Sequence record: MT225100
Reading direction: 5' to 3' (one strand)
Length of the DNA stretch: 50,953 nt
Source of the DNA: Escherichia phage Lys8385Vzw
Numbering within the stretch: the first letter of the stretch is position 1; each line of letters starts with the position of its first letter. A program made the position numbers. Below, one piece after another: positions 9,001 through 12,000 of the stretch.

Positions 9001-12000
9001 GCGGGCGGATAAGGCTTATGGCAAAAGATCTGAAAACACTGGCGCTGGCCAGACTGTCGGGGTTCCGTCATAAAATGGTGAAGGTGCCGGAATGGAGAAA
9101 TGTCAGCGTGGTGCTGCGGGAGCCTTCGGCAGAGGCCTGGTATCTGTGGCAGGAAGTGCTCAATGGTGATGGAGAGGATGACGATACCCTGTCGGTGGTG
9201 GCGAAAACCCGCCGTAACCTGGAAGCGGATGTGACGCTGTTCTGCGATGTCCTGTGTGATACTGACCTGCAACGGGTGTTCACTCCGGACGACCGTGAGC
9301 AGGTGCTGGCCGTCTATGGTCCGGTACATGCCCGGTTGCTGCGTCAGGCACTGGAACTGATCGCTGATGCAGAGTCGGCCAGAAAAAAGTAGCCCGCCCG
9401 GAAATTCGCTTTCTGATGCGACTTGCGCTCCGTCTGGGGCGCACCTTATCCGAACTGCGGCACAGCCTGAGTGTGAGCGAGGCGATGATGTGGATGGAGT
9501 TCGACAGGGTATCCCCGCTGGGTGATGAGCGCGGGGATATCCGTAATGCACAGATCGTGAAAGCGGTTTTTGGGGCACAGGGGATGAATGTTGCACTGAA
9601 GGACGCCATGCTCTGCTGGGGCGAGGATGAGGATAAGCCGGAGGTGGATCCGTTTGCGGCGCTGGAAGACGCGCTGAGCTTCGCAGCACAGTCATGAATG
9701 ATGAGAACCGCTGAGGCGGTTTTTTTACGCCCGGAGAAAGGTGAATGGCGACGTTACGTGAACTGATTATCAAAATTTCGGCAAATTCACAGTCATTCCA
9801 GTCGGAGCTCCAGCGTGCTTCCCGTATGGGCAGTGAATATTACCGGACCCTGCAGAATGGCGGGCGTCAGGCCGCTGCGGCAGCCCGGGAGCAGCGACGT
9901 GCCCTGGCAGAACTGAACAGCCAGTTGACGGAAATTCGCGGTTCTGCTGTCGGAATGGCTGGCGCATTTGCCGGTGCCTTTGCCACCGGACACCTGATTT
10001 CACTGGCTGATGAGTGGAGTTCCGTGAATGCCCGTCTGAAACAGGCGTCGCAGTCATCTGATGAATTTTCGTCATCACAGAAAGTGCTGATGGATATCAG
10101 CCAGCGGACAGGTACCGCTTTTTCGGATAATGCGGCCCTGTTTGCCCGTTCGGCTGCCTCGATGCGTGAATATGGTTACAGTGCTGATGATGTGCTGAAG
10201 GTGACGGAGGCCATTTCCACGGGGCTGAAAATCTCCGGTGCCAGTACGGCTGAGGCGGGTTCGGTGATCACCCAGTTCAGCCAGGCGCTGGCACAGGGTG
10301 TGTTGCGCGGTGAGGAATTTAATTCGGTCAATGAAAGTGGTGACCGGATCATTCGTGCACTGGCTGCAGGCATGGGCGTGGCCCGTAAAGATCTGAAGGC
10401 GATGGCGGACGATGGTCAACTGACGGCGGATAAAGTCGTTCCTGCGTTAATCAGCCAGCTGGGGGTATTGCGTGATGAATATGCCGCCATGCCAGAAACG
10501 GTTTCCGGTAGTATCACGAAGGTGGAAAACGCCTTTATGGCCTGGGTGGGTGGCGCGAATGAAGCCAGCGGGGTGACAAAAACGCTCTCCGGCGTGCTGA
10601 ACGGTGTTGCCGGTAATATTGATAATGTGGCAACAGCCGCGGGGGCGCTGGTTGCCGTCGGGGTTGCCCGGTACTTTGGCAATATGGCCTCCGGAGCGGT
10701 GTCTGCCACGGCAGGACTTGTGACGGCAGCACGTAATGAAGTGGCACTGGCGGAAGCACAGCTCAGGGGGACGCAGATTGCCACGGCGCGGGCAAGGGCA
10801 GCCGTGTACCGTGCACAGCAGGCTGTGGCGGCAGCCCGCGGGACGGAGATGCAGATTGCTGCAGAAGCCCGTCTGGCGGCCACACAGGAACGCCTGAACA
10901 GAAATATTGCTGCCAGAACCGCAGCCCAGAATGCGCTGAACAGTACAACGGCGGTGGGCTCACGTCTGATGACTGGTGCGTTGGGACTGGTTGGTGGCGT
11001 ACCCGGACTGGTGATGCTGGGGGCAGCAGCATGGTATACGCTGTACCAGAATCAGGAGCAGGCCAGGGAGTCAGCGCGCCAGTATGCACTGACGATAGAT
11101 GAAATCGCGCATAAAACGCCGTCAATGTCTTTGCCTGAAGCCTCAGATAATGAAGGACGAACACGGGCGGCGCTGGCAGAGCAGAACCGGCTGATTGATG
11201 AACAGGCCAGCCGGGTGAAATCCCTGCAGGAAAAAATCGCTGGATATCAGTATGTTCTGGCTAACCCTGGCTGGACAACCGGTGACGGATTCATGATAAA
11301 CCATCTGACATCGGTGAAGACCGTGACGGAAGGGCTTTCTCAGGCAACAGAGCAGCTTGCCGTTGAGCAGTCCCGTCTGGCACAGATGCAGGAAAAAGTG
11401 CAGTCCATTCAGGATGTGCTTGCCGGGCTGGAAGACCGTCGTGTGGCGTTAATTCGTCAGCAGGCGGCAGAGCAGAATAAGGTGTACCAGTCCATGCTGG
11501 TTATGAACGGTCAGCATACGGAATTCAACCGTCTGCTGGGGCTGGGGAATGAACTGCTTCAGCAGCGTCAGGGACTGGTGAATGTACCGTTACGGCTGCC
11601 GCAGGCCACCCTGGATGATAAACAGCAGAGCGCCCTGACAAAAACAGAACGTGAGCTGGCCCTGTCCCGACTGAAGGGGGAGGAAAAAGAGCGTGCCCGG
11701 CTGGGGTATGCGGCGGATGACCTTGGTTTTGTGGGGGATTCGTATCAGGAGGCGAGACAGCGTTATATCAGTAATGCTCTGGAAGCCTGGCGTAATAACG
11801 AGGCGAACAAACCTAAATCCCGGGGTAGAAAATCAGAGACGGAAAAAGCGGAAGACAGTTTTTCCCGGCTACTGAAGCAGCAGAAAGAGCAACTGGCACT
11901 GGCGGGTCAGAATACAGAGCTGGCGAAGCTGAAGTACCAGACTGCGCAGGGCGAACTGAAAACCCTGACGGAGATGCAGAAGCAGGAACTGCTGCGTAAC

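What the first reader, a model, noticed from the sequence alone, without database searches (positions are those of the whole stretch)
9383..9392. Programmed -1 frameshift site A_AAA_AAG at the end of tail chaperone G
The heptamer sits in frame immediately before the G stop codon. The -1 frame reads through as KKVARPEIRF LMRLALRLG..., continuous with the T ORF, as in lambda G/GT.
Basis: partly seen in the sequence, partly recalled or inferred. Interest (0 to 1): 0.35.

Follow-up and report, generated by a model that had tools for sequence, protein, structure and literature searches.

The report
Known tail-chaperone G/GT frameshift site
This is the ordinary, already catalogued programmed -1 ribosomal frameshift that lets a Shiga-toxin prophage make a tail-assembly chaperone (G) and a longer G-T fusion from one mRNA; public genome annotations miss it.

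Summary
AAAAAAG lies at 9383-9389 in the shift-prone phase (AGA|AAA|AAG|TAG) at the last two codons of a 124-aa tail assembly chaperone gene (9018-9392). The -1 frame opens only 15 nt upstream of the heptamer and runs 102 codons to 9697.

The window is a long-tailed Stx-converting lambdoid prophage of E. coli with an HK97-type tail module. G is Pfam Phage_TAC_1, the family of HK97 gp13 (PDB 2OB9). The -1 part is Phage_tail_T, the family of lambda T.

In about 70 distinct homologous contexts from a dozen enterobacterial genera:
- An in-phase A_AAG is always kept at this position.
- The two-frame overlap is often only 7 nt.
- The nine codons before the annotated T start codon evolve as coding sequence in the -1 frame.

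No RNA stimulator is present. The likely stimulator is the adjacent stop codon, which is an inference.

The site is already published. Sharma et al. 2014 list ECs1801 (123/124 identical to this G) as a true A_AAA_AAG tail-chaperone frameshift, and HK97's homologue is annotated as a -1 frameshift. GenBank and RefSeq records for this phage still call T a separate 93-aa ORF.

Verdict: real, ordinary, already known.

The parts
9018..9392 (+). Gene G: tail assembly chaperone, 124 aa, the 0-frame product
   Evidence: ORF and translation. Pfam PF06222 Phage_TAC_1, E=1.4e-60, full length. PDB 2OB9 'Tail assembly chaperone', E=1.2e-45. 123/124 identical to ECs_1801 of Sakai prophage Sp9.
9365..9367 (+). 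TGA stop in the -1 frame; upstream limit of the two-frame overlap (the -1 frame is open from 9368)
   Evidence: Translation of the -1 frame; open-frame coordinates 9368-9697.
9383..9389 (+). Slippery heptamer A_AAA_AAG in X_XXY_YYZ phase; proposed site of the -1 slip by tRNA-Lys
   Evidence: Sequence and phase. The in-phase A_AAG is kept at the aligned position in all homologues analysed. The same cluster is listed as a true -1 PRF case in PMC4066793 Table S4.
9390..9392 (+). TAG stop of G, directly 3' of the heptamer; candidate 'shifty stop' stimulator (inferred)
   Evidence: Sequence. A stop is directly adjacent in 33 of 44 distinct contexts and in all 26 family-like contexts.
9389..9697 (+). 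T segment read in the -1 frame after the slip: 102 codons from GTA at 9389 to stop TGA at 9695-9697. Fusion G-T = 226 aa.
   Evidence: Translation. Pfam PF06223 Phage_tail_T, E=1.5e-18. 58% identical to the HK97 T part. phrog_14766 (224 positions) matches G at 1-122 and T at 125-224.
9389..9415 (+). Junction codons VARPEIRFL, upstream of the annotated T start, translated only if the ribosome arrives from G
   Evidence: In 30 diverse homologues there are no stops in the -1 frame. Entropy at codon positions 1/2/3 is 0.71/0.76/1.35. Synonymous differences are 41% of codon differences in the -1 frame, against 17% and 4% in the other two frames.
9416..9418 (+). ATG used as the T start in public annotation (93-aa ORF); most likely an internal Met of G-T
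   Evidence: Annotated as the start in LC567819 and NZ_CP028112. By inspection of the 23 nt upstream there is no Shine-Dalgarno match beyond GGA. By eye, lambda T appears to have Leu at the equivalent position (FAL against FLM); BLASTP itself finds no alignment between the two T parts.
8296..9012 (+). Context: major tail (tube) protein gene with a C-terminal Ig-like domain, immediately upstream of G
   Evidence: Pfam Phage_tail_2 / Phage_TTP_11 plus Ig_2 / I-set.
9745..12987 (+). Context: tape measure protein gene (1080 aa), immediately downstream of T
   Evidence: Pfam PF06120 Phage_HK97_TLTM 1.2e-89, TMP_3, Tape_meas_lam_C.

Best explanation
This is a programmed -1 ribosomal frameshift of the phage tail-assembly-chaperone (G/GT) class. 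Most ribosomes translating G read AGA AAA AAG and terminate at TAG, giving the 124-aa chaperone. A minority slip back one base on A_AAA_AAG. In E. coli a single tRNA-Lys (anticodon mnm5s2UUU) reads both AAA and AAG and re-pairs well with AAA. After the slip the ribosome reads GUA GCC CGC... and adds 102 residues carrying the Phage_tail_T domain, giving a 226-aa G-T fusion. By analogy with lambda, many G copies and a few G-T copies coat the tape measure protein, the T domain recruits the major tail protein, and neither protein stays in the virion. Shown here: the anatomy, the phase, the family memberships, the conservation of the site, the coding constraint across the junction, and the absence of an RNA stimulator. 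Inferred: that the slip actually happens, its efficiency (probably in the low percent range), the role of the adjacent stop codon, and the assembly function.
For: - **Site and phase:**
- **Gene order:** major tail, G, T, tape measure, then an M-like minor tail gene confirmed by Pfam (PF05939); further downstream ORFs have sizes typical of L, K and I but were not scanned.
- **Family membership:** G is PF06222 and matches PDB 2OB9. T is PF06223, as for lambda T and HK97 T.
- **HK97 precedent:** the HK97 homologue is annotated 'translated due to a -1 frameshift'. Rebuilding its fusion at the aligned A_AAG reproduces NP_037707.1 exactly.
- **Conservation:** an in-phase A_AAG is kept in all homologues from Escherichia, Salmonella, Klebsiella, Morganella, Proteus, Providencia, Pectobacterium, Serratia, Kosakonia, Pantoea and others. 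The 5' codon varies among AAA, GGA, GAA and GCA.
- **Pinned position:** in many homologues the -1 frame opens only at the heptamer, leaving a 7-nt overlap that pins the shift site.
- **Junction codons:** they show third-position variability, excess synonymous change and no stops in the -1 frame only.
- **Fused family:** PHROG 14766 spans both parts contiguously.
- **Literature:** cluster A_AAA_AAG_25 (ECs1801, tail assembly chaperone, marked [true], 53 genes, GeneTack cluster 10) is in PMC4066793 Tables S4 and S7. ECs_1801 is 123/124 identical to this G with an identical site.
- **Heptamer strength:** A_AAA_AAG and lambda's G_GGA_AAG behave almost identically in E. coli reporters: 0.29 and 0.28% unstimulated, 4.3 and 3.8% with the IS911 stimulator, 39 and 43% with the IS3 pseudoknot.
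- **Mechanism and lambda function:** PMC5009743.
Against: - No direct protein evidence for this phage was found.
- The exact 226-aa fusion is absent from a collection of about 15 billion proteins, and records annotate T as a separate ORF.
- An ATG at 9416 is conserved in the family, although as the residue in the FLM motif.
- No stimulatory RNA structure or SD-like element was found. The bare heptamer would then give only about 0.3% in a reporter, unless the adjacent stop or other context raises it.
Confidence: 0.9

Rival explanations
1. T is an independent gene, as annotated. It would be translated from ATG 9416, either de novo or by reinitiation of ribosomes that terminate at the G stop 23 nt upstream. 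The heptamer would then be incidental.
For: GenBank LC567819 and RefSeq PGAP both annotate a 93-aa T ORF from this ATG. The ATG is present in all homologues analysed. The short distance from the G stop would permit coupling.
Against: There is no Shine-Dalgarno match upstream (inspection). The nine codons upstream of the ATG are constrained as coding sequence in the -1 frame, with no stops in 30 of 30 sequences. They could not be translated from that ATG. By eye, lambda T appears to have Leu at this position. The curated HK97 record gives only the fusion. A 224-position fused family exists in PHROGs. In lambda, T is made only as gpGT (PMC5009743).
Confidence: 0.05
2. The fusion is made by transcriptional slippage. 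RNA polymerase would add one A in the A6 run, so a fraction of mRNAs would encode G-T in frame.
For: A homopolymeric A6 run is present. Transcriptional slippage is used by some IS elements and phages (PMC5009743).
Against: Homologues keep the same architecture with runs of only A3 (GCA_AAG) or A4 (GGA_AAG has A3, GAA_AAG has A4), which are too short for polymerase slippage. What is conserved is the phase of A_AAG, a ribosomal signature. From my own knowledge, productive slippage by E. coli RNA polymerase generally needs about 9 or more A/T.
Confidence: 0.03
3. The heptamer is a chance or decaying feature and the T frame is a remnant in a defective prophage, so no functional recoding occurs.
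For: Many O157-type prophages are defective. AAAAAAG is not rare in this window (18 copies).
Against: The site, its phase, the T ORF length (94-103 codons) and the T protein sequence are conserved across genera and in hundreds of viral contigs. E. coli genes strongly avoid this heptamer in this phase (z = -10.1, PMC4066793 Table S3), so retention implies use.
Confidence: 0.02

Closest known systems
Phage HK97 gp13 / gp13-14 fusion (NC_002167, NP_037708 / NP_037707; gp13 structure PDB 2OB9)
   Same: Both parts are homologous: G has E=1.2e-45 to 2OB9 and T is 58% identical. The gene order is the same and the -1 shift sits at the aligned A_AAG. The junctions align as ...AREK|VSTPGVKFLM in HK97 and ...ARKK|VARPEIRFLM here.
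   Different: HK97 uses G_GAA_AAG, and its G continues for 5 more codons (SQPPA*) instead of stopping at once. HK97 also carries a moron (gp15) between T and the tape measure gene. Here only a terminator-like hairpin lies in that gap.
Phage lambda gpG / gpGT (G_GGA_AAG, about 30:1 ratio)
   Same: The position is the same, between the major tail and tape measure genes. Both use a -1 shift near the 3' end of G with no required RNA structure. The T part is in the same Pfam family, PF06223. The heptamers have nearly equal strength in E. coli reporters. Function as described in PMC5009743.
   Different: Lambda G belongs to a different Pfam family (PF06894 against PF06222), with no BLASTP similarity for G or T. 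Lambda's site lies 6 codons before the G stop, whereas here the stop is adjacent.
Cluster A_AAA_AAG_25 (ECs1801, prophage Sp9 of E. coli O157:H7 Sakai) in Sharma et al. 2014, NAR 42:7210 (PMC4066793); GeneTack programmed-frameshift cluster 10
   Same: Essentially the same gene. G is 123/124 identical, with the identical heptamer, stop and downstream sequence. It is listed as a 'tail assembly chaperone; [true]' case with a longer frameshift product, no SD and no distinctive hairpin energy.
   Different: Only a few point differences, for example M20 against T20 in G and a different T C-terminus. The window's prophage carries an Stx gene, while Sp9 is a non-Stx lambdoid prophage.
E. coli dnaX gamma/tau frameshift (A_AAA_AAG)
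   Same: The heptamer and the tRNA-Lys slippage chemistry are identical (PMC5009743).
   Different: dnaX has an upstream SD-like element and a strong downstream stem-loop, reaches about 50% efficiency and gives a shorter product. Here no stimulatory structure or SD is found and the product is longer.

Membership tests
Tailed-phage tail assembly chaperone G/GT programmed frameshift (Levin 1993; Xu, Hendrix & Duda 2004 class) | Two small ORFs lie between the major tail (tube) gene and the tape measure gene | tested here: met
   Major tail 8296-9012, G 9018-9392, T frame to 9697, tape measure 9745-12987, with Pfam assignments.
Tailed-phage tail assembly chaperone G/GT programmed frameshift (Levin 1993; Xu, Hendrix & Duda 2004 class) | The second ORF overlaps the 3' end of the first in the -1 frame and has no credible start of its own | tested here: met
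   The -1 frame is open over 9368-9697. There is no SD before ATG 9416 (inspection). Codons upstream of that ATG are under coding constraint in the -1 frame.
Tailed-phage tail assembly chaperone G/GT programmed frameshift (Levin 1993; Xu, Hendrix & Duda 2004 class) | A slippery X_XXY_YYZ (or Z_ZZN) sequence lies in phase inside the overlap | tested here: met
   A_AAA_AAG at 9383-9389, in phase.
Tailed-phage tail assembly chaperone G/GT programmed frameshift (Levin 1993; Xu, Hendrix & Duda 2004 class) | The shift site and the two-frame architecture are conserved in relatives despite sequence divergence | tested here: met
   About 70 distinct contexts from genome and viral contigs keep the in-phase A_AAG and a 94-103 codon -1 ORF.
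Tailed-phage tail assembly chaperone G/GT programmed frameshift (Levin 1993; Xu, Hendrix & Duda 2004 class) | G and G-T are both made, at a fixed low ratio, and both are needed for tail assembly but absent from virions | not testable with these tools
   This needs protein detection and genetics. The only support is the analogy to lambda (PMC5009743).
Pfam PF06222 Phage_TAC_1 (HK97 gp13-like chaperone) | Full-length profile match above the gathering score | tested here: met
   203.1 bits against a cutoff of 25, residues 1-124 on profile positions 1-124; PDB 2OB9 E=1.2e-45.
Pfam PF06223 Phage_tail_T (lambda T domain) | Profile match above the gathering score in the -1 frame product | tested here: met
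   67.4 bits against a cutoff of 25.9. Lambda T scores 54.1 and HK97 T scores 73.4 on the same model.
Pfam PF06894 Phage_TAC_2 (lambda gpG proper) | Sequence or profile similarity of the G part to lambda gpG | tested here: not met
   Lambda G hits PF06894 only, and the window G hits PF06222 only. BLASTP gives E=6.7.
dnaX / IS911-type stimulated A_AAA_AAG frameshift cassette | A downstream stem-loop or pseudoknot 5-9 nt after the heptamer and/or an SD-like element 6-17 nt upstream | tested here: not met
   Fold z-score is +0.27. RNAalifold on 22 homologues gives no consensus structure, and per-sequence z-scores lie mostly between 0 and +1.6. No SD-like sequence occurs in 9366-9377 (inspection). 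Sharma et al. report no SD and a hairpin energy difference of 0.020 +/- 0.023 for this cluster. Rfam finds no frameshift element.

The most novel reading that the evidence does not exclude
In this chaperone family the stop codon placed directly after A_AAG may be the stimulator, a -1 'shifty stop'. With peptidyl-tRNA-Lys on AAG in the P site and a slowly decoded UAG or UAA in the A site, the tRNA would slip back to AAA and the ribosome would then read GUA. This would explain three observations:
- No RNA structure is needed.
- The stop is adjacent in most lineages.
- Non-slippery 5' codons such as GCA (A_GCA_AAG_UAA in the Klebsiella and Pantoea clades, where the overlap is only 7 nt) are tolerated. 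In contrast, the lineages that lost the adjacent stop all have AAA_AAG or GAA_AAG.

The lineages are few and not independent, so this is only a lead.
Probability: 0.35. Interest if true: 0.3.

Novelty: already known. Interest (0 to 1): 0.12.

Why it matters
Biologically it is textbook. G/GT frameshifting sets the chaperone ratio needed to build a long phage tail.

The practical value is for annotation. GenBank and RefSeq records for this very common family of E. coli prophages call T a free-standing 93-aa ORF. The segment is found in 1246 of 5426 complete E. coli genomes. The 226-aa fusion is absent from public protein collections.

The family also offers a natural allelic series that could be used to study stimulator-free -1 frameshifting in enterobacteria. 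The 5' codon is AAA, GGA, GAA or GCA, with or without an adjacent stop.

Tried and rejected
- **Downstream stimulatory RNA.** A single-sequence fold of 9383-9500 gave z = +0.27. RNAalifold on 22 diverse homologues gave an empty consensus, and 50-nt downstream folds were not more stable than shuffles. Rejected.
- **Known RNA families.** Rfam gave only a sub-threshold isrK hit (27.3 bits against 50) at 9659-9726, over the T 3' end and the terminator hairpin. IsrK is a prophage sRNA with short and long isoforms (abstract of PMC4825925). To my recollection it is not from a tail region. I treat the hit as generic hairpin-plus-terminator similarity.
- **Direct similarity to lambda G and T by BLASTP.** None was found. 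Only the Pfam profile links the T parts.
- **Exact look-up of the predicted fusion.** The window and Sp9 fusions are not in the collection, but the HK97 fusion is.
- **Literature evidence specific to Stx phages.** Nothing beyond Sharma et al. 2014 and the GeneTack cluster. Xu et al. 2004 is not in the held library, so what it tested for HK97 rests on my memory and is not cited as a result.
- **Independent T initiation and transcriptional slippage.** Both were considered and rejected, as set out under the rival explanations.
- **Malformed calls.** Three search or read calls failed on syntax.
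Full report
**1. Observation**

The bases at 9380-9392 are CAG AAA AAA G TAG. The ORF 9018-9392 encodes 124 aa ending ...AESARKK*. 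Its codons are AGA(9381-9383) AAA(9384-9386) AAG(9387-9389) TAG(9390-9392). AAAAAAG at 9383-9389 is therefore in the X_XXY_YYZ phase, and the stop codon follows at once.

The -1 frame has a TGA at 9365-9367 and then stays open from 9368 to a TGA at 9695-9697. It reads CRVGQKKVARPEIRFLMRLALRLGRT.... After a -1 slip the next codon is GTA at 9389, and 102 further codons are added. The fusion is 226 aa.

**2. Is it more than chance?**

The heptamer alone is not informative. The window has 18 copies on both strands, against 8.9 +/- 2.9 in shuffles. Only two of the 18 are in the shift-prone phase inside an open frame of at least 100 codons. The other one, on the minus strand at 28749-28743, runs into a stop after three -1 codons.

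The stretch where both frames are open is only 22 nt. An in-phase AAAAAAG there is expected about once in a thousand (my arithmetic). The comparative data below settle the matter.

**3. What the genes are**

The segment is 97-100% identical to long-tailed Stx1a- and Stx2c-converting phages. It is found in 1246 of 5426 complete E. coli genomes, often in several copies. The window itself is a whole Stx prophage (details under noticed in passing).

- **Upstream gene:** the major tail protein, with a C-terminal Ig-like domain.
- **Downstream gene:** a 1080-aa tape measure protein of the HK97 type (PF06120), followed by an M-like minor tail gene (PF05939). The next ORFs have sizes typical of L, K and I but were not scanned.
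- **G:** a full-length match to PF06222 Phage_TAC_1 (1.4e-60) and to the solved 'tail assembly chaperone' 2OB9 (1.2e-45).
- **The -1 part:** matches PF06223 Phage_tail_T (1.5e-18), the same model hit by lambda T (2.1e-14) and HK97 T (2e-20).
- **Lambda G:** belongs to another Pfam family (PF06894). It has no BLASTP similarity to this G, and neither do the two T parts to each other.

The accurate statement is this: the system works like lambda G/GT, the T domain is in the lambda T family, and the G domain is of the HK97 gp13 type. PHROG 14766, a 224-position family, matches G at positions 1-122 and the -1 part at 125-224. A fused product family therefore already exists in phage databases.

**4. 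Comparison with HK97**

The HK97 record annotates gp13 (7472-7858) and a joined CDS 'translated due to a -1 frameshift'. Its sequence reads CGG GAA AAG TCT CAA CCC CCG GCG TAA. I rebuilt the fusion by slipping at the A_AAG that aligns with the window's site. The result is exactly the deposited NP_037707.1. The junctions align as ...AREK|VSTPGVKFLMSLALRMGRT in HK97 and ...ARKK|VARPEIRFLMRLALRLGRT here.

**5. Conservation**

Using a profile of G homologues, I fetched three sets of loci:
- 41 loci from species-representative genomes;
- 80 loci from viral contigs;
- 129 more viral loci for the Salmonella/Citrobacter and Klebsiella clades.

Four results stand out.
- **The core motif:** in every family member analysed, an in-phase A_AAG sits at the aligned position and a -1 ORF of 94-103 codons follows.
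- **The 5' codon varies.** It is AAA in Escherichia, Morganella, Proteus, Providencia, Pectobacterium, Serratia and Kosakonia. It is GGA in Salmonella and Citrobacter, which makes lambda's G_GGA_AAG. It is GAA in the HK97 type, and GCA in Klebsiella, Raoultella, Pantoea and Erwinia.
- **The overlap is often minimal.** In many loci the -1 frame is closed by a stop immediately before the heptamer, for example GCT AAA AAA AAG TAG, GC TGA GGG AAA GTA G, or GCT AAA GCA AAG TAA. The overlap is then 7 nt and the shift can occur nowhere else.
- **Short A runs persist.** Runs as short as A3 or A4 are retained with the phase intact. This fits ribosomal slippage and not transcriptional slippage.

**6. 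Is T made from its own start?**

Public records start T at ATG 9416, giving 93 aa. The 23 nt before it (GCCCGCCCGGAAATTCGCTTTCTG) contain no Shine-Dalgarno match beyond GGA. G and the tape measure gene, in contrast, have TAAGG and GGAGAAAGG upstream.

Across 30 diverse homologues, the nine codons between the slip site and that ATG behave as coding sequence in the -1 frame only:

| Measure | -1 frame | Other two frames |
|---|---|---|
| Sequences with a stop in the junction | 0 of 30 | 29 of 30 and 5 of 30 |
| Synonymous share of codon differences | 41% | 17% and 4% |
| Mean entropy at codon positions 1/2/3 | 0.71 / 0.76 / 1.35 | not computed |

Within these codons:
- Pro is nearly invariant but uses all four CCN codons.
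- Phe alternates between TTT and TTC.
- Leu uses CTG, TTG, TTA and CTA.

These residues can only be translated by ribosomes arriving from G. By eye, lambda T appears to have Leu where this family has the Met (FAL against FLM).

**7. Stimulators**

No downstream structure was found. The fold z-score is +0.27. There is no RNAalifold consensus among 22 homologues, and no excess stability in the 50 nt after the site. No SD-like element lies 6-17 nt upstream (inspection), and Rfam finds no frameshift element. This agrees with Sharma et al., who record no SD and a hairpin energy difference of 0.020 +/- 0.023 for this cluster.

Their reporter data show that A_AAA_AAG and lambda's G_GGA_AAG are nearly equivalent in E. 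coli:

| Heptamer | No stimulator | IS911 stimulator | IS3 pseudoknot |
|---|---|---|---|
| A_AAA_AAG | 0.29% | 4.3% | 39% |
| G_GGA_AAG | 0.28% | 3.8% | 43% |

E. coli genes also strongly avoid A_AAA_AAG in this phase (z = -10.1). The tRNA-Lys basis of A_AAG shiftiness, and the dependence of NNA_AAG sites on the wobble capacity of the 5' tRNA, are reviewed in PMC5009743.

One contextual feature is recurrent: the stop codon directly 3' of AAG. It is adjacent in 33 of 44 distinct contexts and in all 26 family-like contexts. I infer, without proof, that it acts as a 'shifty stop' in the sense of Weiss et al. 1987, which is listed as reference B54 of that review.

**8. Prior knowledge**

Sharma et al. 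2014 (PMC4066793) list cluster A_AAA_AAG_25 in Table S4. The entry gives 53 genes, representative ECs1801, 'tail assembly chaperone; [true]', and a frameshift product longer than the 0-frame product. Table S7 cross-references it to GeneTack programmed-frameshift cluster 10. The main text calls these 'expected cases'.

ECs_1801 lies in Sakai prophage Sp9. It is 123/124 identical to the window's G, with the same heptamer, stop and downstream sequence. The G/GT class itself has been known since Levin et al. 1993 and Xu et al. 2004, as cited. The finding is therefore already known. What is missing is the annotation, since the exact 226-aa fusion is absent from a collection of about 15 billion proteins.

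**9. Verdict**

The site is real and correctly interpreted, with the refinement that HK97 is a closer model than lambda. It is not novel. My confidence that a ribosomal -1 frameshift here produces a G-T fusion is about 0.9. What remains uncertain is the efficiency, the role of the adjacent stop, and direct protein evidence for this phage.

Noticed in passing
window 9706-9726 (+); also 9659-9726: A terminator-like hairpin (AACCGC-TGAG-GCGGTT followed by a T7 run) lies in the 47-nt gap between T and the tape measure gene. The terminator scan missed it, probably because it extends stems greedily. Sp9 has a similar hairpin at the same place. HK97 has an annotated putative terminator after its moron gp15 at the equivalent spot. 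Rfam gives a sub-threshold isrK hit here (27.3 bits against a gathering score of 50, E about 3e-4), probably generic hairpin-plus-terminator similarity. A terminator in the middle of the tail operon, or a 3'-end-derived sRNA, was not examined further.
   Followed up: partly
window 28749-28743 (-), inside ORF 28976-28428 (-): This is the only other A_AAA_AAG in the shift-prone phase within a long ORF. The ORF is 182 aa, has no Pfam hit, and lies between Ead/Ea22-like and DUF551 genes. A -1 slip there would terminate after three codons (AFP*), giving a truncated product. It is probably incidental.
   Followed up: partly
loci L184, L185, L177 and others (Klebsiella-type viral contigs); L019, L021, L024, L028, L037, L039: These homologues use A_GCA_AAG or G_GCA_AAG followed directly by TAA, often with only a 7-nt two-frame overlap. 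The P-site codon GCA cannot re-pair in the -1 frame. These sites must therefore rely on single-tRNA A_AAG slippage, possibly helped by the adjacent stop. All lineages lacking the adjacent stop have AAA_AAG or GAA_AAG.
   Followed up: partly
loci L127-L167 (Salmonella/Citrobacter-type viral contigs): This clade of the same HK97-type chaperone family carries lambda's heptamer G_GGA_AAG, again directly followed by TAG or TAA. In most of these contexts a -1-frame TGA lies immediately before the heptamer.
   Followed up: yes
protein P0018 (191 aa, Logan assembly); also P0021, P0003, P0086: Some database proteins extend beyond the G stop. P0018 is an in-frame G-T fusion joined exactly at KK|VALPGMRFLM. 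That is the result expected from a 1-nt change in the A run, whether a real mutation or an assembly or sequencing error at the homopolymer.
   Followed up: no
locus L090 (IMGVR_UViG_3300029191_000019): Here the T frame runs 319 codons and departs from T after ...LRLGRTL into ...TVLRWRMSSTTPP. That sequence matches an alternative frame within the window's 13294-14019 ORF (size typical of L; ORF 13769-14329). This suggests a prophage with a deletion removing the rest of T, the tape measure gene and the M-like gene.
   Followed up: no
window 8296-9012 (+): The major tail protein carries a C-terminal Ig-like domain (Pfam Ig_2 / I-set, residues about 150-233) after the tube domain.
   Followed up: no
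window 8259-8273 (+): A terminator-like hairpin (CCCGCCGCGTGCGGG followed by a T run) sits just upstream of the major tail gene. Together with the hairpin at 9706-9726 it brackets the major-tail, G and T block.
   Followed up: no
window 6025-6762 (+): This 245-aa ORF between the portal gene and the 108-aa packaging or head-tail gene is 648 nt shorter than the CDS at the same place in Stx1_14040 (1386 nt, annotated 'phage portal protein'). It has only a weak CBM_5_12 hit.
   Followed up: no
window 41960-42916 (+), 43800-45632 (+), 22620-23540 (-), 24174-25271 (-), 2515-4452 (+): The window is a complete Stx-converting prophage. It has a Shiga toxin A-like RIP domain protein, a SASA/DUF6645 esterase downstream of it, an NleG type III effector, an integrase, and a fused prohead protease-major capsid gene.
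   Followed up: partly
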